Origin: a virus
Taxonomy: Duplodnaviria > Heunggongvirae > Uroviricota > Caudoviricetes
Strand: one strand, 5' to 3'
Length of the DNA: 14,999 nucleotides
IMG/VR virus record: IMGVR_UViG_2563366959_000014
A model generated the notes under the pieces. That model was given only the letters and a program-made list of their open reading frames with translations, did no database searches and was not told the origin of the DNA. Position numbers and translations under genes: made by a program. Shown one piece after another: positions 6,375 to 13,228 of the stretch (within the stretch, counting starts at the first letter, position 1; each line of letters begins with the position of its first letter).

Positions 6375-7532
6375 TTAATCGTCGTCCTGTGGCAGTTCCA
6401 GAATCTTGATCGCGTTCGAATCCACCACGCCACCGCCTAAATATTTCTGCGTGAAAATTTTGATGAATCCTGGTTCTGTCAGGTTGTCCGGTCTGGTGCG
6501 AACACCCGTTTCGTGATCAACAATGTAGTAACCGCGTTTGAAGTCACCCAGGGCAATAACGTTATCCGGCATAAACTCCAGATATTCGACCGGAAGGCCC
6601 AGCAACGTATCAGGATCACCAGCCTGTAAACGGTCGCGCCAGATGTAATCACCGTTCGCGTTCTTCACCTTCTGAAGTTTTGCCGCCGTCGTGGAGTTAA
6701 CCACCCAGACCGCGTTTTTGCGGTATTTTTTACGTAATGCAAATTTCAGGTCGATCAGCGGGTCCGCAGATGTCCACGCAAGAGACTCAGAAGGCTTAAT
6801 TACCTGCAACGTACCAAAATCACGCTCTTTGTCGTTCTTCTCTGCACGGGGTACGGATAAAAAGCCTTTTGCTTTTTTGTCACCGTCGCCCACAACCAGA
6901 TCGCTTTCTTCGATTTCCGTGAAGGTGTCGCCAATCTCGCCCGTCAGCCATGAAAGGATGTCCACATCGGAAAAATCCACGATTTCCTGTGTGGTGCGCG
7001 GGTACGCATAGACCGGATACAGCTTAATGCTCACCTCGTTAATCTGCGGGGTGCTGGTCTGTTCGCGTGACTTACCCTCTTCACCGTGGTTAACGGTCGC
7101 ACCGCCAGCGGAAACAAGCTGCTTAAACTCGTTGCTGCTGATTTTCTTCACGGTACAGATGCGGCGCATGGTGGATTCATCCGCCAGCATTCGCATGATT
7201 TCGGTGTTCAGTTCAGGGATAACGGTATAACCACCATCAGCGGGGACACCTGTACTTAATGCGCGGGTTTCACCTGTCAGGATGTAGTTGCGGAGTTCTG
7301 CCGGGTCAGTGGTCTGGCTGCTTTTACCTGGCTTGCTGCGATCTTCGTCTGCAATGGCTTCAAGGCGGGAAATGTCTTTATCGAGGGATTCAGCTTTAGC
7401 GCGTAATTCGTCAAATTTTGCGCCCTCTGCATCGTTAAGGCTGCGGTTTTCTTTTTCCGCGTTCTCCAGCATGTCGCGCATCTGATTTTTAATGGCGGTT
7501 TTCTGCTGGCGTAATTCGATTATTCTCGGCAT
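6375..7532 (-). CDS. Major capsid protein, HK97 fold
   Basis: 385 aa from the ATG at 7532 (MPRIIELRQQ); N-terminal coiled-coil-like delta-domain region followed by a capsid-like body; directly upstream of protease and portal. Confidence 0.9.
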   Translation of the reverse strand: MPRIIELRQQKTAIKNQMRDMLENAEKENRSLNDAEGAKFDELRAKAESLDKDISRLEAIADEDRSKPGKSSQTTDPAELRNYILTGETRALSTGVPADGGYTVIPELNTEIMRMLADESTMRRICTVKKISSNEFKQLVSAGGATVNHGEEGKSREQTSTPQINEVSIKLYPVYAYPRTTQEIVDFSDVDILSWLTGEIGDTFTEIEESDLVVGDGDKKAKGFLSVPRAEKNDKERDFGTLQVIKPSESLAWTSADPLIDLKFALRKKYRKNAVWVVNSTTAAKLQKVKNANGDYIWRDRLQAGDPDTLLGLPVEYLEFMPDNVIALGDFKRGYYIVDHETGVRTRPDNLTEPGFIKIFTQKYLGGGVVDSNAIKILELPQDDD

Positions 7533-7540
7533 AAAAAAAA

Positions 7541-7570
7541 GTCCTGGGGTTAAGTAAGGAACTCCAGGAC
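7541..7570 (-). promoter_or_regulatory. Stem-loop followed by U8, immediately 5' of the capsid start codon
   Basis: GTCCTGG / CCAGGAC stem with a 16-nt loop, then eight T on the minus strand running straight into the capsid ATG; the only AGGA-like Shine-Dalgarno lies in the 3' stem arm. Confidence 0.3.
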
Positions 7571-7748
7571 GCGGCAAAAACTCAACCGTTTTTCATAAGG
7601 AAATCAGCAATCGCACCGATCGTTTTCCCGCCTGGTAATGAATATTGGTGAGCACATTAACAGGCGGGAAAGTGGCCCCAGCGTCCTGGCACCACTGGCG
7701 AGAATAATCATGATTCAGGGCGGGTAAAATATGCCGATCCGGTCAATG

Positions 7749-7773
7749 AACAACGTGGAACGACCACGAACAA
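7749..7773 (+). promoter_or_regulatory. Copy B of the composite direct-repeat site (AACAACGTGGAACGACCACGAACAA)
   Basis: Exact 13-mer shared with 252-264 and 13702-13714; about 215 bp upstream of the capsid operon start. Confidence 0.4.
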
Positions 7774-7790
7774 ATAATTTACAAAAAATT

Positions 7791-7814
7791 ACAAAAAGCC
7801 GGATTGCTCCGGCT
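7791..7814 (-). terminator. Rho-independent terminator (minus strand)
   Basis: AGCCGGA / TCCGGCT stem, 4-nt loop, followed on the minus strand by TTTTTGT; 10 nt after the stop of the 74-aa gene. Confidence 0.7.
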
Positions 7815-7824
7815 GTATGGGTGC

Positions 7825-8049
7825 TCAGTCCCTGATCCCTTTCAGAAATTCTATCAATGCATCTATCTGTTCAGGATTTACTGCCAGCATTTCACCGGAT
7901 AGAGCACATCTCACAAAACCATGCTGATCCTTTTCAATCAGTGCGCCCGTCTCCAGGAATGCGCGGTAATCATTGATGTTCATCGTCTCCATGTTGTCAG
8001 CATGGTATTTATCACGCTGTTTTAATATCTCATCAAATTTCATCGGCAT
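7825..8049 (-). CDS. Hypothetical protein (74 aa), moron-like cargo
   Basis: ATG at 8049 with AGAGGA Shine-Dalgarno; AT-rich relative to neighbours; bracketed by two near-identical terminator hairpins. No family recognised. Confidence 0.6.
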   Translation of the reverse strand: MPMKFDEILKQRDKYHADNMETMNINDYRAFLETGALIEKDQHGFVRCALSGEMLAVNPEQIDALIEFLKGIRD

Positions 8050-8144
8050 TGTTTTTTCCTCTGTTGTGTCTGTTTGTTTCAGATAGTAACTATGCCGGAC
8101 CGTGACGAAAAGCCGGTAATGCGCCATACCGTTTCAACTGGCGC

Positions 8145-8168
8145 AAAAAAAGCCGGATTTCTCCGGCT
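8145..8168 (-). terminator. Rho-independent terminator (minus strand), near-duplicate of 7791-7814
   Basis: AGCCGGA / TCCGGCT stem with a T-run on the minus strand; 6 nt after the PerC-like stop. Confidence 0.7.
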
Positions 8169-8174
8169 GTGTGA

Positions 8175-8447
8175 TTAGCTGTCCTGGTAATTGCGCCATA
8201 TTTCATCACCAGCACCATCTATACCCATTTCGGCATAAGTGCGATTGACTGCCTTTCTCAGGTCTCCGAAATTATCAGGCGGCTCCGGTGGCCTCTGTGC
8301 CTTCCTGGAACATTCCAGCCGTCGCATCGTGATGTGATGCCGTTCCTTGTCTGTCTCCACCAGCATCATGACTTCACCCCATCGCGCCGCCGCCCTCCGG
8401 TAAAATCCTTTCGCTTCGAGTTCTTCCGCTATGCGGTCATGTACCAT
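8175..8447 (-). CDS. PerC-family small transcriptional regulator (90 aa)
   Basis: N-terminus MVHDRIAEELEAKGFYRRAAARWGEVM matches the conserved AE.LE..G.YRRA..RW signature of PerC/Pch proteins as I recall it. ATG at 8447 with GAGGGGGTGA Shine-Dalgarno just after the SSB stop. Confidence 0.6.
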   Translation of the reverse strand: MVHDRIAEELEAKGFYRRAAARWGEVMMLVETDKERHHITMRRLECSRKAQRPPEPPDNFGDLRKAVNRTYAEMGIDGAGDEIWRNYQDS

Positions 8448-9425: not shown

Positions 9426-9466
9426 AGGCTTTATCTCACAGCAGTAAATTAAAATTTTTGCGTTTT

Positions 9467-9700
9467 AACCCTTCACCTGTTCACCTTTTGATATTTTATC
9501 TTTTAATTCATAATGTTAAGGGGTGAACAGTTTCACAAAAACTATTCACCAACTGTTCACCACTGTTCACCCTTGAAGCTCAATAAACAATCAAAAAGGT
9601 GAACAGTGAATAGTTTGGTGAACAGTTCATAAATAACTGTTCACCCTATAATATACTGATATAAAAGATATTTATGACAGGGTGAACAGTGGTGAACAGT
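9467..9700. repeat. Replication origin: about ten GGTGAACAG / CTGTTCACC iterons in both orientations within an AT-rich segment
   Basis: Iteron copies at 9478-9485, 9522-9530, 9543-9550, 9553-9561, 9563-9571, 9598-9606, 9617-9625, 9638-9646, 9681-9689 and 9691-9699; the segment lies directly 3' of the primase gene. Confidence 0.75.
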
Positions 9701-9712
9701 TATTCCATAAGT

Positions 9713-11530
9713 TTAATTTTTGCTATCGTCATTAGTGACCGATACACATGACGGCATCCAGTCTTCTGATTCCTCCGTCAGTGTCACGTTTGAACGCAAA
9801 CCGTGCTTCGTTTTCCGTTTCATATACTCCCTGCCATATTCCGCCATTGCCCCCGGCATATCTTTACCGAAGCGCGTCAGTGTTACAGGTTTACCAAACC
9901 CATGTGCCTTCATATAAGCCAGATAGGCATGATAGAGATACCTGCGCGGGCTGAATGGCACAATTTCAGCATTACCCACTAACAGGCCATCACACATTAC
10001 CGACGCCATGAGATAGCCGCAGAAGTCCACCAGCGAATCACCTTCACGCTTTATCGCGAGTGCTTCTTCTGATTTCTGCTGCTCATATAAAAGGCGTCTG
10101 GCTTCGTCCTGGTCAGCAAACCGTGTAAGCAGATGACGAATCACTACCGCCAGCTCACCTTCTATTTTTTCCGCCAGCATTGAATCGCGTTCGTTCTCCG
10201 GTACAACTTCCGAAAAATTGAATATCACCCGACGGCGCGAGATCCCCCCGCTGCGGTCACTGAATGACATGGCGTTATTGTTAACCGCCAGCACTACTGC
10301 CGGAATACGCGTTGAGTAGGGGGCTTTGTGTTTCGGGTCAATTGCCACCTTGTCACCGCCTGTAATGGCCTTAATTCCTGCCCCATCACCAGCGTAGCGG
10401 GTCATATCCGGCATGATAATCAGCGAAAAGCCAACCACTAACGCGCGTTCCCTTGCATCTTCCAGCGCCTTCATGCTTGCCGATACTGTGTTGGCCTTAC
10501 CCGCCAGCATGGTGCAAATCTCCGCCATCACGCTTTTACCACTTCCCCCTGGACCTGTTACCTCAATGAATAACTGCCAGTCGTACCGGTTCGCCAGCAC
10601 CATGAATAATGCAGCCAGTACGCGATCCGCCTTGCGGTCATTCTCAGCCACCGAACGGCGTAACCACTTCCAGAAATTCGGCGCATGTGTTGCCAGCGTT
10701 TCTCCCTCTGCTGGTGGGCTGAAAGGTAATTCACTGGCAATTAACAACCAGTCGTTTTTGTTATGCTCCCGAAAATCGCCTGTCCGGGTATCAAAAACAC
10801 CGTTACTGAATCCAATCAGGTTACGGGCTGTATTCCCCATTACAGGCAAACTTAACTTCATGGTATCGACCGCCGATTTAATGGCGTTCTGCGAATAGCT
10901 GATCTCCGCATCAATGAAAATCTGTGCCATAGCTCGCTGTAATTCTTTATCCTGTACTGGCTCCCATACAACGCCGTTGTAATAGTGAACAGTGTCAGAG
11001 TCAGCATGAATCGCCAGTTCACCGCCATAATGTGCCAGGAGAACTTCGCCGCGTTGACTTGCTCCCATCTGGTTAAGCGCCAGTGATGAAGCGTTATCGT
11101 CTTTTACCCGCTCTTTTTTCTTTACAGGCAGTTCAACTACCTTTTTCTTTTCCGCCTGCTCTGCCCGTTCACGTTCCAGATATTCGCGCCAGTTCTCCCG
11201 TTTCTGGCTGTGCATTCCTTCAGGGTAATAATCAGCATCCCTGACACCTGCCGCTGCCAGTTTCTGCCCGATGGTATTAACAAGCCCCGGACGCAATAAC
11301 CCCGCCTGGTAGAGACGCACGCGATAGCGTCCGTCCGGTACGATTTGCAGGTTGTCCAGTTCGGCAAGTTGTTGCTCTCCAAGCCAGACAGGAGGCACGC
11401 TGTCGCCAGCCAGTCGCCCGTCCTGTTCCTGCCACTGCTTCGCATGTGCCCACGCATCACTACCCGCAAAAATGATGACTTCCGTCATTTTGTCACGTGG
11501 CTGGTGTTTTAAATTTGGCGCTTTTTTCAT
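9713..11530 (-). CDS. Replication primase/NTPase, P4-alpha C-terminal-domain family
   Basis: 605 aa from the ATG at 11530 (MKKAPNL), which overlaps the upstream stop (ATGA) and follows a GGAGAG Shine-Dalgarno. Walker A motif GPGGSGKS and a Walker B-like hydrophobic stretch; followed by the iteron origin. Confidence 0.85.
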   Translation of the reverse strand: MKKAPNLKHQPRDKMTEVIIFAGSDAWAHAKQWQEQDGRLAGDSVPPVWLGEQQLAELDNLQIVPDGRYRVRLYQAGLLRPGLVNTIGQKLAAAGVRDADYYPEGMHSQKRENWREYLERERAEQAEKKKVVELPVKKKERVKDDNASSLALNQMGASQRGEVLLAHYGGELAIHADSDTVHYYNGVVWEPVQDKELQRAMAQIFIDAEISYSQNAIKSAVDTMKLSLPVMGNTARNLIGFSNGVFDTRTGDFREHNKNDWLLIASELPFSPPAEGETLATHAPNFWKWLRRSVAENDRKADRVLAALFMVLANRYDWQLFIEVTGPGGSGKSVMAEICTMLAGKANTVSASMKALEDARERALVVGFSLIIMPDMTRYAGDGAGIKAITGGDKVAIDPKHKAPYSTRIPAVVLAVNNNAMSFSDRSGGISRRRVIFNFSEVVPENERDSMLAEKIEGELAVVIRHLLTRFADQDEARRLLYEQQKSEEALAIKREGDSLVDFCGYLMASVMCDGLLVGNAEIVPFSPRRYLYHAYLAYMKAHGFGKPVTLTRFGKDMPGAMAEYGREYMKRKTKHGLRSNVTLTEESEDWMPSCVSVTNDDSKN

Positions 11531-11832: not shown

Positions 11833-12153
11833 TTATCCCCGATTTAAATCAGTATTCGCTTTCTTTATAGCATTTAATGCATCTTTGGCATTTTCAATGG
11901 TGCACCGTAACGAAATATCAAACTGTCCAAGCATTGCCAGTAACAAACCGATATTACCCATATCAATGCGCATGGCCTTTTCGTCATATTCCTTATTTTC
12001 TGACGCATACCACATCAGGCTACCAATTGACGAAACAGCCATTGATATATTGTCAGTAGCCCCATCCGCAGCGGAATAAACCTTTTTAGCAATATCATGC
12101 TCACAGTTAAAATGCGGATTAATCAGGTACTGGTAATTGGTCATGTCAGTCAT
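11833..12153 (-). CDS. Hypothetical protein (106 aa), AT-rich
   Basis: ATG at 12153 (alternative at 12144), overlapping the 3' end of the upstream small gene. No family recognised. Confidence 0.55.
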   Translation of the reverse strand: MTDMTNYQYLINPHFNCEHDIAKKVYSAADGATDNISMAVSSIGSLMWYASENKEYDEKAMRIDMGNIGLLLAMLGQFDISLRCTIENAKDALNAIKKANTDLNRG

Positions 12154-12349
12154 GGCACACCCCCTGACGAATACGGGCGGCGAATACCATCACGCAGCCA
12201 GCCGGGGATTGCTGGCGTGCTTCCTGTTCGCTGCTGGCCTCAATGGTAATCACGCGCGGTTGTGCCGTGCTCAGGGCGATAAAACGCCAGATGTATTTAT
12301 TCAGGTTGTGCGAGTCCCGCCCTTGCGGGTGTGTGGTATGATTTCTCAT
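12146..12349 (-). CDS. Hypothetical protein (67 aa), first gene of the minus-strand replication operon
   Basis: ATG at 12349 with GAGGT Shine-Dalgarno at 4-nt spacing; this is the C-terminal 67 codons of a longer spurious ORF. Weak support. Confidence 0.4.
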   Translation of the reverse strand: MRNHTTHPQGRDSHNLNKYIWRFIALSTAQPRVITIEASSEQEARQQSPAGCVMVFAARIRQGVCHD

Positions 12350-12445
12350 AGCTACCTCGATACTTTCGCTATCGTTGGTGGTTAGAAGCCCGGTTAGTGT
12401 TAGCGCACTGCCGGGTTTCGTCGTTTCTGCACCTTGCGCCAACAA

Positions 12446-12499
12446 GGTGTTGAACACCAATTTAAACCCAGGTGTTAAACACGTCAAGTGTTGAACACT
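12446..12499. promoter_or_regulatory. Three palindromic operators (GTGTT-N-AACAC) in a divergent promoter region
   Basis: GGTGTTGAACACC at 12446-12458, GGTGTTAAACACG at 12471-12483, AGTGTTGAACACT at 12487-12499. The third overlaps a plus-strand -35-like TTGAAC (12491-12496), with a 17-bp spacer to a -10-like CATACT (12514-12519). Confidence 0.6.
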
Positions 12500-12548
12500 T
12501 ATTTTTTTTCCTGCATACTGCATTTGTTTTTTATGAGGGGTACACCAC

Positions 12549-12728
12549 ATGGCGACAAAAGCAGTAAACGCAAAATCACAAACCGTTGCGGCAAGGGTTC
12601 CGCATGAAGTTATGAACAATGTTGAGGCGGTAAAAATGCCTGGCGAAAGTACGGGGCAATTTGTTACTGCAGCATTAAAACGAGAAGTTGAATATCGCCA
12701 GCGGCGCAAGGCCAAAGAACCAGAGTAA
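12549..12728 (+). CDS. Ribbon-helix-helix (Arc/CopG-like) DNA-binding protein, 59 aa
   Basis: Not in the supplied ORF track (under 60 aa). ATG at 12549 with GAGGGG Shine-Dalgarno. TVAARVP (beta strand), HEVMNNVEAV (helix), GESTGQ (turn), FVTAALKREV (helix) fits the RHH pattern. Divergent from the replication operon. Confidence 0.55.
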   Translation: MATKAVNAKSQTVAARVPHEVMNNVEAVKMPGESTGQFVTAALKREVEYRQRRKAKEPE

Positions 12729-12785
12729 TCACCATCAGCGCCGTGGTGTAAGGTATTACGGCGCATTGCTATGCAGGACAACACA

Positions 12786-12959
12786 ATGACCGATAAAGAA
12801 TTGACCAAAACATTATCACCGGCACGGAAAAGACGGCGCAGAAAGATAGAGCATGAATCAGAAAGATTCGCGCCATGTGCTTTTGCCCTTGAGCAATTCC
12901 TTAAAGAGTACAGGGAAAAGCGCTCATTGCAGGTATGGCAACGAACTGAACCAGACTGA
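12786..12959 (+). CDS. Small basic hypothetical protein (57 aa)
   Basis: ATG at 12786 with AGGA upstream (alternative start at 12771); contains an RKRRRRK basic tract; followed by a terminator. Confidence 0.4.
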   Translation: MTDKELTKTLSPARKRRRRKIEHESERFAPCAFALEQFLKEYREKRSLQVWQRTEPD

Positions 12960-13054
12960 TAGCATTGCCCACCAGCCTGATAGCGACTATCATTGCCGTT
13001 CTTATGTTTGGGATCACACACACAAACGGCGCAGCGGGTTATCTGTTCAGAAAG

Positions 13055-13082
13055 GCGGCTCCATTTCGGGGCCGCTTTTTTT
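13055..13082 (+). terminator. Rho-independent terminator (plus strand)
   Basis: GCGGC / GCCGC stem followed by seven T, about 95 nt after the stop of the second plus-strand small gene. Confidence 0.6.
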
Positions 13083-13228
13083 ATGTCTGAAAAACCCCAA
13101 TTTTGTTGTTTTTCAGTTTCACCAGGGCGAACGAATCCCCGCCCACGTTCGGGCGCATATTCAATCTTCATGGTTATAGCTCTGTGTTCAGATGATTGAT
13201 GTGTGGCGGCTGCGTGCCGCCAGCGTGA

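What the first reader, a model, noticed from the sequence alone, without database searches (positions are those of the whole stretch)
7791..8168. Moron-like 74-aa gene bracketed by duplicated terminators
Two near-identical terminator hairpins (7791-7814 and 8145-8168) flank a single AT-rich gene with its own strong Shine-Dalgarno. A partial third copy of the hairpin left arm (AAAAGCCGG at about 8108-8116) lies in between. This looks like a cassette inserted downstream of a pre-existing terminator. Morons in satellites often encode defence, anti-defence or exclusion functions.
Basis: partly seen in the sequence, partly recalled or inferred. Interest (0 to 1): 0.6.

Follow-up and report, generated by a model that had tools for sequence, protein, structure and literature searches.

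The report
Conserved small satellite gene between duplicated terminators
The two near-identical terminators around a 74-codon gene are real, but the gene is a widely conserved, dispensable gene of unknown function in capsid-forming phage satellites, and the repeated terminators mainly explain why it is so often precisely lost or swapped between islands.

Summary
On the minus strand, two intrinsic terminators (8168..8145 and 7814..7791; 25/27 nt identical, 354 nt apart) bracket a 74-aa ORF (8049..7825) with a GAGG ribosome-binding site. A decayed third terminator half lies at 8102-8116.

The window is a capsid-forming PICI satellite, about 96% identical over this 1.2-kb junction to Sakai Sp7; the EcCIEDL933 prototype carries the same cassette.

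The "moron" reading is only partly right. The 354-bp unit is a clean presence/absence polymorphism: 539 of 5426 complete E. coli genomes carry it, and about half of near-identical islands lack it, leaving one hybrid terminator. It also occurs in a second PICI type.

However, the gene is not foreign cargo. It belongs to phrog_1957, and homologues (32-48% identity) sit in the same slot in satellites of more than twelve genera: after the replication genes and before the accessory hotspot and capsid operon. E. coli also has a second allele (42% identity, 134 genomes) fused to the upstream operon without a terminator.

No sigma-70-like promoter is seen in the 95-nt spacer, and there is no defence-family hit. 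The protein is small and acidic, with no recognisable fold. Its function remains unknown; I guess a protein-binding helper/host factor. Interest is modest.

The parts
8145..8168 (-). T1: intrinsic terminator directly after perC (hairpin 8168..8151, T7 run 8150..8145)
   Evidence: Listed by the terminator scan. Folds at -12.6 kcal/mol, z -3.1. The same hairpin follows perC in islands without the gene.
8050..8144 (-). 95-nt spacer between T1 and the ORF, with no sigma-70-like promoter detected
   Evidence: No minus-strand promoter-like site falls here. The spacer occurs only together with the ORF, in the same number of E. coli genomes (539), at 590 places against 592 for the cassette. About 10% of its sites vary, the same rate as in the ORF.
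8102..8116 (-). Relic of a third terminator copy (3' arm plus tail only)
   Evidence: The 9-mer occurs 3 times against 0.17 expected. It matches the T2 3' arm plus tail at 13/15 positions. It does not fold stably.
8058..8061 (-). Shine-Dalgarno GAGG, 8 nt upstream of the ATG
   Evidence: Read directly from the sequence.
7825..8049 (-). 74-aa ORF 'X' (= Sakai ECs_1589 / WP_001132080 family; phrog_1957), a small acidic protein
   Evidence: phrog_1957 at E 2.4e-41. Homologues at 32-48% identity in Enterobacterales and Gilliamella. Among 23 variable sites, 15 are at third codon positions. pI 4.9, net charge -5.
7791..7814 (-). T2: second copy of the terminator (hairpin 7814..7797, T-run 7796..7791). 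It ends the early region and marks the module boundary before the capsid-operon leader.
   Evidence: Homology to the EcCICFT073-type island stops exactly here (query position 394 = window 7793). It is positionally equivalent to the terminator after the second allele in L092.
8175..8447 (-). perC (pchE-like) gene, whose transcript T1 should terminate
   Evidence: Pfam PerC at 3.6e-43. A published transcription start and polycistronic ECs1586-ECs1587-pchE RNA are reported in PMC7369912.
7533..7790 (-). Leader of the packaging operon. It contains a hairpin plus U8 abutting the capsid ATG (7570..7533) and a 17-nt inverted repeat (7624-7671).
   Evidence: The same leader follows the terminator in islands with the other allele and in islands without the gene.

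Best explanation
The window is an E. coli capsid-forming PICI satellite, and 7791-8168 is the junction between its early (replication/regulation) region and its packaging operon. The 74-aa gene X is not imported cargo. It is the E. coli version of a small acidic protein family (phrog_1957).

Position of the family. In satellites of many Enterobacterales it is the last gene before the accessory hotspot and capsid operon. About half of the homologue loci have a hairpin plus T-rich tail just after the stop codon.

Transcription in this lineage:
- perC, with its own terminator T1, lies immediately upstream.
- X therefore sits between two copies of one terminator and behind a spacer with no detectable promoter.
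- X can probably be transcribed only by read-through of T1 from the upstream ECs1586-ssb-perC promoter (inferred).

What the two terminator copies do. They act as 23-32-nt direct repeats. Recombination or slippage between them removes X precisely and leaves one hybrid terminator. The product is observed; the mechanism is inferred. Crossovers in the hairpin also let the unit move between two PICI families that share the perC-ssb region (inferred from the breakpoints).

The protein. X is under purifying selection, yet it is dispensable in about half of otherwise near-identical islands. It does not depend on the type of replicase or capsid module. It is acidic, has no recognisable fold and shows no DNA-binding signature. 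My best guess is that it binds a host or helper-phage protein rather than acting as a structural, replication or DNA-binding component. That last step is a guess, not a result.
For: Island identity:
- The junction is 100% identical to FORC_028 and 96% to Sakai Sp7.
- EDL933 carries the same cassette.

The indel:
- 539 of 5426 genomes carry the cassette, always full length.
- The spacer never occurs without the ORF.
- Empty sites have one terminator with the perC-side flank on one side and the leader-side flank on the other. Both loop variants occur among them.
- Among IMG/VR islands with capsids at least 97% identical, 18 carry this allele, 1 carries the other allele and 21 are empty. This is independent of replicase type and of perC allele.
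- In the closest empty/filled pair, the single 23-nt terminator aligns to both T1 and T2.
- Homology with the EcCICFT073-type island ends at T2. CFT073 itself is an empty site.

Synteny:
- 13 genome loci from Enterobacter, Kluyvera, Serratia, Leclercia, Phytobacter, Pectobacterium, Kosakonia, Gilliamella, Xenorhabdus and Proteus show the order replicase, X, variable slot, capsid.
- The same order holds in Xenorhabdus and Citrobacter contigs.
- 7 of 8 non-E. coli-type IMG/VR islands with upstream sequence have X.
- The second allele is present in 134 genomes, fused to ssb or to a proQ-like gene.
- A hairpin plus T-rich tail follows X in 14 of 28 loci.
- The variable slot downstream of X carries PDC-M32A/B in Kosakonia.

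Coding and expression:
- Variable sites are biased to third codon positions.
- There is no promoter-like site in the spacer.
- The published transcription start lies upstream of ECs1586 (PMC7369912).

Protein:
- Net charge across the family ranges from 0 to -9 (-2 to -9 in 17 of 18 members).
- No family, fold or defence match was found.
Against: - The direction of the original event is not resolved. T2 has the perC-type hairpin rather than the GGCCTGG-type hairpin that follows the other allele. The spacer also contains a terminator relic. Both fit an insertion of [spacer + X] at perC's terminator at least as well as an ancestral X.
- No filled/empty pair is near-identical on both sides. The best pair is 99.8% identical on one side and 97% on the other. 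No recent deletion has therefore been caught in the act.
- The promoter scan is a simple consensus test. A weak or activator-dependent promoter in the spacer is not excluded.
- A hairpin plus T-rich tail was found after X in only half of the homologue loci with my criteria.
- Genome collections are heavily biased toward O157:H7, so the frequencies are not population estimates.
- The functional guess rests only on charge, size and context.
Confidence: 0.65

Rival explanations
1. A true moron. A foreign, self-contained cassette was inserted behind perC's terminator and encodes a defence, anti-defence or exclusion function that benefits the host or island.
For: - The unit is a presence/absence polymorphism with repeat-bounded edges.
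- Its GC content is lower than the island's (42.7% against 50.4%).
- T2 carries perC's hairpin type, and a terminator relic lies in the spacer.
- It sits next to a region reported as variable and expected to carry immune systems. That region holds PDC-M32 in a Kosakonia island.
- Small acidic proteins are often inhibitors.
- The upstream operon is expressed at a low level in uninduced cells (PMC7369912).
Against: - Homologues are syntenic backbone genes in satellites of more than twelve genera.
- A second E. coli allele sits inside the ssb operon.
- No promoter of its own was detected.
- There is no PADLOC hit.
- The real variable slot lies downstream of X, not at X.
- EcCIEDL933 does not reduce HK106 or HK446 titres.
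Confidence: 0.15
2. X is a regulator (activator or antiterminator) of the adjacent packaging operon. This would be analogous to late-gene activators encoded at the end of early operons, such as lambda Q or P2 Ogr.
For: - Its position immediately upstream of the capsid operon is conserved.
- The capsid leader carries a terminator-like, SD-sequestering hairpin at a position conserved across genera.
- The family profile weakly resembles a wing-like segment of the N.BspD6I DNA-recognition domain (whole-sequence E about 1e-3, domain E 0.16).
Against: - About half of the islands with a 99%-identical capsid gene and packaging-operon leader lack X.
- The same allele sits before an unrelated packaging module and leader in EcCICFT073-type islands.
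- The family is acidic.
- It has no Ogr-type 4-Cys motif and no similarity to PerC.
Confidence: 0.1
3. X is an accessory of replication or recombination. For example it could be a partner of the island SSB, or a protector of replicating concatemers from host nucleases.
For: - It is co-oriented with, and directly downstream of, the replicase plus iteron origin, or of ssb.
- It is translationally coupled to ssb or a proQ-like gene in the second allele.
- An acidic small protein could act as a DNA mimic.
- Dispensability would make sense if helpers supply the function.
Against: - It is independent of replicase type: D5, RepA/AAA_25 and Toprim-DUF927 all occur with it.
- Most non-E. coli islands with X have no ssb.
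- There is no sequence or fold similarity to any known replication or anti-nuclease protein.
Confidence: 0.08
4. The ORF is not a real gene, and the region is simply a tandem double terminator insulating the early region from the packaging operon.
For: No promoter is detected. Tandem terminators are common insulators.
Against: - Protein-level conservation across genera, with a shared start, length and motifs.
- Third-codon-position bias of variation.
- A good SD sequence.
- An HMM family, phrog_1957, is hit by all 18 members tested.
Confidence: 0.02

Closest known systems
Capsid-forming PICIs (cf-PICI), prototype EcCIEDL933 (Alqurainy et al., bioRxiv 10.1101/2022.09.08.507074)
   Same: The window has the full cf-PICI gene set and order. 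EDL933 carries this very cassette between perC and the capsid gene.
   Different: In the text I could search, the papers do not discuss this gene or the terminator duplication. Their packaging-module mutagenesis mentions only a 'hypothetical gene 1792', which I could not map to this ORF.
Morons of lambdoid prophages (the Hendrix/Juhala concept, recalled from my own knowledge): an extra gene with its own promoter and terminator inserted between conserved genes
   Same: It is a single small gene with a terminator. It is present or absent between genes that are adjacent in relatives, and its GC content is lower.
   Different: No promoter of its own was detected. The gene family is a syntenic backbone element across genera rather than sporadic cargo.
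Accessory or defence hotspots of satellites (PICI immune-system hotspots as cited in bioRxiv 10.1101/2025.02.11.637232; P4 hotspots recalled from my own knowledge)
   Same: The cassette borders the variable region just upstream of the packaging operon. In other genera that slot holds diverse, mostly opposite-strand genes, including a PADLOC candidate system.
   Different: X is the conserved flank of the hotspot, not one of its variable occupants, and it has no defence-family match.
Small satellite proteins that bind helper proteins (SaPI Ppi, PICI Rpp), as described in the cf-PICI paper's introduction
   Same: It is a small satellite-encoded protein next to the packaging genes. A protein-binding role is my favoured guess.
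   Different: There is no sequence or fold similarity. EcCIEDL933 does not interfere with its helpers. This is an analogy only, untested.
P2 Ogr / P4 Delta late activators (recalled from my own knowledge)
   Same: Similar size (about 72 aa) and a similar position at the end of an early region, before the late genes.
   Different: The four-cysteine zinc motif is absent, since X has a single Cys. X is acidic and is dispensable for islands with the same late operon.

Membership tests
cf-PICI (the island that holds the finding) | [quoted passage not shown] | tested here: met
   Pfam hits for every component.
cf-PICI (the island that holds the finding) | Size about 10-18 kb, with no tail module and no lysis genes | tested here: met
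   Sakai Sp7 is annotated as 15.5 kb between phoQ and roxA and contains only these genes. No tail or lysis family was found among the window ORFs scanned.
cf-PICI (the island that holds the finding) | Helper-phage induction and transfer in small, island-made capsids | not testable with these tools
   Shown experimentally for EcCIEDL933 in the literature. EDL933 carries the same cassette, with the same protein accession as in O157:H7 strain F7508.
Moron | Present in some and absent from other closely related elements, lying between genes that are otherwise adjacent | tested here: met
   Filled and empty sites.
Moron | Own promoter, giving autonomous transcription | tested here: not met
   No sigma-70-like site on the gene strand in 8050-8170. 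This was a simple consensus scan, so a weak or activated promoter is not excluded.
Moron | Own terminator | tested here: met
   T2 hairpin plus T-run. Termination activity itself was not tested.
Moron | Foreign origin: not part of the conserved backbone of the element family | tested here: not met
   Homologues occupy the same slot in satellites of more than twelve genera and in a second E. coli allele.
phrog_1957 (protein family of unknown function) | Significant full-length HMM match | tested here: met
   E 2.4e-41 over residues 1-74. All 18 aligned family members hit it.
Rho-independent terminator (T1, T2) | GC-rich hairpin immediately followed by a U-run on the transcribed strand | tested here: met
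Rho-independent terminator (T1, T2) | Measured termination of transcription | not testable with these tools
   Needs Term-seq or 3' RACE. The published work maps only the 5' end of the perC transcript.
Known anti-phage defence proteins (PADLOC models) | HMM match to a defence-system component | tested here: not met
   No hit at E <= 1.
Winged-helix / HTH DNA-binding proteins | Recognisable HTH fold or family match | tested here: inconclusive
Ogr/Delta late activators | Four-cysteine zinc-binding motif | tested here: not met
   The sequence has one cysteine.

The most novel reading that the evidence does not exclude
phrog_1957 proteins could be a new, satellite-specific class of small acidic effector with a previously unseen fold. 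The family is conserved at the early/late junction of several PICI families, fast-diverging, and repeatedly lost. Such a protein might manipulate a helper-phage or host protein: neutralising a host nuclease or defence, boosting supply of helper tail genes, or tuning helper specificity. If so, the divergent alleles would reflect an arms race or helper matching.
Probability: 0.3. Interest if true: 0.6.

Novelty: new member of a known kind. Interest (0 to 1): 0.35.

Why it matters
cf-PICIs are a recently recognised and widespread class of phage satellites, and their non-packaging genes are largely unexplored. This work makes four points.

- One of the anonymous 'hypothetical' genes of the prototype island belongs to a family that marks the early/late junction of these satellites across many genera.
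- It is nonetheless dispensable, which makes it a clean target for knock-out and interaction studies.
- It is a useful landmark for locating the adjacent accessory (defence) hotspot.
- The terminator hairpin acts as a recombination joint between satellite modules and between two PICI families. That helps explain their mosaicism.

None of this overturns current understanding.

Tried and rejected
Searches on the 74-aa protein:
- Pfam, NCBIfam and PADLOC gave no meaningful hit.
- The PHROG search returned only phrog_1957, of unknown function.
- PDB sequence search with the single protein found nothing. With the family profile it found only a borderline N.BspD6I segment.

Structure:
- AlphaFold on the single sequence was poor (pLDDT 58). 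With an 18-sequence alignment it reached pLDDT 76.
- The afdb50 library was unavailable.

Other comparisons:
- tblastn of two alleles against 50,697 phage genomes found no match, so the family seems confined to satellites.
- hhalign of the family against PerC found nothing, and the Xenorhabdus upstream 77-aa protein shows no similarity to PerC.
- Rfam found nothing real on 7400-8300.
- Two odd hits of the exhaustive search are repeat-protein artefacts: P0018, an LRR-like 1383-aa protein, and P0030.

Tests on the cassette:
- Is the hairpin a genome-wide dispersed repeat or mobile hairpin? No. It occurs at 1-7 places per genome, in 1146 of 5426 genomes (median 2 places each); the copies I examined all lie in PICI-type islands.
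- A search for a filled/empty pair that is near-identical on both sides, to catch a recent deletion, found none. The best pair is 99.8% and 97% identical on the two sides.

Practical and literature notes:
- The first attempt to scan genomes with the broad alignment failed for lack of a conserved stretch. A narrower alignment worked.
- Literature searches for the locus tags and accessions of this gene returned nothing.

Full report
**What is in the sequence.** All genes in the window run on the minus strand. Between perC (8447..8175) and the capsid gene (7532..6375) lie five elements.
- Terminator T1: hairpin 8168..8151 plus a T7 run.
- A 95-nt spacer.
- A GAGG ribosome-binding site 8 nt before an ATG at 8049.
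- A 74-codon ORF ending at 7825.
- Terminator T2: hairpin 7814..7797 plus a T-run.

The two terminators are part of a 27-nt direct repeat, 25/27 identical and 354 nt apart. They fold at -12.6 and -12.8 kcal/mol, well below shuffled controls.

AAAAGCCGG occurs three times in the window against 0.17 expected, and all three lie here. On the gene strand it reads CCGGCTTTTCGTCAC, a 13/15 match to the 3' arm and tail of the common T2 variant. It has no 5' arm and does not fold, so it is a relic. The ORF is 42.7% GC in a 50.4% GC window, only mildly AT-rich.

**What the window is.** Pfam identifies the following genes:
- a tyrosine integrase and AlpA;
- a DUF4222 protein, a D5-type primase-helicase and SSB;
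- PerC;
- an HK97-type capsid, S78 protease and portal;
- a head-completion protein, a connector and HNH;
- a P27-type TerS and TerL.

No tail or lysis genes were found. This is a capsid-forming PICI (cf-PICI). Over the 1.2-kb junction it is 100% identical to E. coli FORC_028 and about 96% to Sakai 'prophage Sp7', which sits between phoQ and roxA. EDL933, whose island EcCIEDL933 is the experimental prototype of the family, carries the same cassette. The ORF is Sakai ECs_1589, annotated as hypothetical.

**The cassette is a clean indel bounded by the terminators.**
- The 325 nt between the repeats occur, always full length and at least 90% identical, in 539 of 5426 complete E. coli genomes. The spacer alone occurs in the same number of genomes (539), so spacer and ORF travel together.
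- Islands about 94% identical at this junction (for example UCPROB-001) lack exactly these 354 bp. They carry one terminator whose perC-side flank is T1's and whose capsid-side flank is T2's.
- Among IMG/VR contigs with capsids at least 97% identical to the window's, 18 carry this allele, 1 carries a different allele and 21 are empty. Filled and empty sites occur with the same perC allele and with every replicase type. Empty sites show both loop variants.
- In the closest filled/empty pair, the single 23-nt terminator of the empty island aligns to both T1 and T2 of the filled one.
- The same cassette, with both terminators, is present in a different satellite type at the same chromosomal site. 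This is the EcCICFT073-type island of O55:H7 and many O157:H7 strains, with lambda E/D-like capsid genes. Homology with the window stops exactly at T2. CFT073 itself is an empty site of that type.
- The hairpin is not a dispersed repeat. It occurs at 1-7 places per genome, in 1146 of 5426 genomes; the copies I examined all lie in PICI-type islands.

**The gene is not foreign cargo.**
- An exhaustive HMMER search found a small family of 75-105-aa proteins at 32-48% identity. Its conserved core is DHHGF.R..LSGE.LA.N.EQLD.LIE.L. A word-indexed profile search placed the family in Citrobacter, Klebsiella, Ewingella, Xenorhabdus and Arsenophonus, always annotated 'hypothetical'. All members hit phrog_1957, of unknown function.
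- A genome scan returned 16 loci. In the 13 with complete context the order is replicase, a 200-270-nt gap, X, a variable slot of 0.2-2 kb, then HK97 capsid-protease-portal and the rest of the packaging genes. These come from Enterobacter, Kluyvera, two Serratia, Leclercia, Phytobacter, Pectobacterium, Kosakonia, Gilliamella, Xenorhabdus and three Proteus.
- The same order holds in Xenorhabdus contigs and in a Citrobacter satellite with a ClpP-capsid fusion. It also holds in 7 of 8 non-E. coli-type IMG/VR islands with upstream sequence.
- E. coli has a second allele, 42% identical, in 134 genomes. It directly follows ssb, a proQ/FinO-like gene or perC with no intervening terminator. It has its own GGCCTGG-type terminator, followed by the same leader sequence as in the window.
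- The constant element at this junction is therefore X. The variable elements are what lies before it (perC, a proQ-like gene, or nothing) and after it. The slot after it holds diverse, mostly opposite-strand genes, including the PADLOC candidate system PDC-M32A/B in Kosakonia. This agrees with the published remark that the regions flanking the cf-PICI packaging operon are variable and expected to hold immune systems (bioRxiv 10.1101/2025.02.11.637232).
- No homologue was found in 50,697 phage genomes.

**Is it a real, expressed gene?**
- Cross-genus conservation of start, length and motifs argues for coding.
- So does the distribution of variation. Among 14 distinct cassette variants, 15 of 23 variable ORF sites are at third codon positions.
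- Expression is less clear. The consensus scan finds no sigma-70-like promoter on the gene strand between T1 and the ATG.
- Published 5' RACE in an O157:H7 strain places the start of a polycistronic ECs1586-ECs1587(ssb)-pchE RNA 10 nt upstream of ECs1586. That paper also reports low steady-state expression that falls on SOS induction (PMC7369912).
- In the window this start falls in the AT-rich, iteron-filled origin region downstream of the primase gene.
- I infer that T1 ends this transcript and that X receives only read-through. This is not shown.
- In the second allele, X is simply the last cistron of that operon.

**What the protein might do.**
- The family is consistently acidic: pI 4.6-5.9 for 17 of 18 members, net charge 0 to -9. 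It has no signal peptide or membrane segment that I could see by reading the sequence, and a single, non-conserved cysteine.
- The only sequence hint is a borderline profile match to a wing-like segment of the N.BspD6I DNA-recognition domain. I do not trust it, given the charge and the negative fold searches.
- Context narrows the options. X occurs with three replicase types and three packaging-module types. It is missing from about half of islands whose capsid genes are 99% identical and whose packaging-operon leader is conserved. EcCIEDL933, which has it, does not reduce HK106 or HK446 titres.
- That argues against a structural role, an essential late activator, a replicase-specific cofactor or a strong helper-interference factor.
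- My best guess, at low confidence, is a dispensable protein-binding modulator of a host or helper protein.

**How the duplicated terminators arose.** This is not resolved.
- For insertion of [spacer + X] at perC's terminator: T2 has the perC-type hairpin rather than the type that follows the other allele. The spacer holds a terminator relic. In the EcCICFT073-type background the repeat is longer (about 32 nt, including GC(A/G)CC after the T-run), and T1 in the window keeps that tail. This suggests the duplication arose in the EcCICFT073-type background and was later carried into cf-PICIs by a crossover within the hairpin.
- For an ancestral X with later loss: the family's conserved position across genera, and the recurrent empty sites of two hybrid types.
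- Both can be true. There may have been one origin of the duplicated arrangement, followed by repeated repeat-mediated loss and re-acquisition by homologous recombination among islands that share the ssb-perC region.

**Comparison and verdict.**
- The cassette resembles a moron in being a single small gene with a terminator that is present or absent between conserved neighbours.
- It fails two defining features that I could test: it has no detectable promoter of its own, and it is not of foreign origin.
- It is better described as a conserved but dispensable backbone gene of PICI satellites that, in one E. coli lineage, has become trapped between two copies of perC's terminator.
- The island type is known and the gene is already in databases as hypothetical. 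I found no paper discussing the gene or the duplication.

The finding is real and tidy, but it does not challenge current ideas. Its value is as a well-defined target, an uncharacterised satellite-restricted protein family with no recognisable fold, and as a landmark for the adjacent accessory hotspot.

Noticed in passing
window 7533-7570 (minus strand); also L010, L015-L029, L073, L081, L091, L092 just upstream of the capsid ATG: A hairpin sits 5-8 nt before the capsid start codon in cf-PICIs of many genera. At least three unrelated sequences occupy the same place: GGTTTCACG...CGGAAACC in most genera, CTGCATG...CATGCAG in Xenorhabdus, and GTCCTGGAG...CCCCAGGAC plus U8 in the window. In the window it looks like an intrinsic terminator (-14.1 kcal/mol, z -3.2) whose 3' arm contains the only SD-like AGGA. 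It could be an attenuator or a translational gate for the packaging operon.
   Followed up: partly
window 7624-7640 / 7655-7671: A 17-nt inverted repeat, 94% complementary (TTTCCCGCCTGGTAATG / CATTAACAGGCGGGAAA), lies in the packaging-operon leader. It is also present in an island that lacks the cassette (L002). It may be an operator site.
   Followed up: no
window 9453-9723: The AT-rich gap (32% GC) after the primase gene holds at least ten copies of the iteron GGTGAACAG in both orientations. This is very likely the island's replication origin. The published transcription start of the ECs1586-ssb-pchE operon maps to this region in Sakai-type islands.
   Followed up: partly
L004 1770-1885, L093 2541-2656 (= window about 8090-8205): RefSeq annotates a 'frameshifted trigger factor' pseudogene running across T1 and the spacer in many genomes, and a 42-aa 'hypothetical protein' in others. 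This looks like an annotation artefact over a terminator.
   Followed up: no
L006 8294-8806, L015 6296-6808, L016 6294-6800, L027 6311-6856, L029 2641-3186, L091 7284-7790: A roughly 170-aa protein of unknown function recurs on the opposite strand immediately downstream of X. It has no Pfam or PADLOC hit. It is seen in Citrobacter, Enterobacter, Kluyvera, Proteus and E. coli satellites and is a candidate common occupant of the accessory hotspot.
   Followed up: partly
L022 6373-7861: A Kosakonia cf-PICI carries the PADLOC candidate defence system PDC-M32A/B (E 3e-139 and 4e-49) in the slot between X and the capsid gene.
   Followed up: yes
L091 6559-7249, L092 4006-5249, L072 5011-5598: The position between ssb and X is itself a variable slot. 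It holds nothing, a ProQ/FinO-family gene or perC in different E. coli islands, with X overlapping or closely following the upstream gene.
   Followed up: partly
window 12146-13171 (minus strand): A 341-aa ORF has only its C-terminal approximately 50 residues matching the Icd-like cell-division-inhibitor domain. Related islands annotate short (about 65-aa) Icd-like genes or pseudogenes here. It may be a fusion or an over-called ORF.
   Followed up: no
L009 (Xenorhabdus, NJAK01000002.1): Two copies of the X-capsid-protease-portal block lie head to head about 5 kb apart, and further copies sit at contig ends (L010, L011). Either several cf-PICIs share one genome or the assembly has duplicated the block.
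   Followed up: no
L012-L014 (Klebsiella quasipneumoniae): A lone X homologue (35% identity) lies in a plasmid-like context with Rep3, ParA-like and fimbrial genes and no satellite genes nearby. It is the only non-satellite context seen.
   Followed up: no
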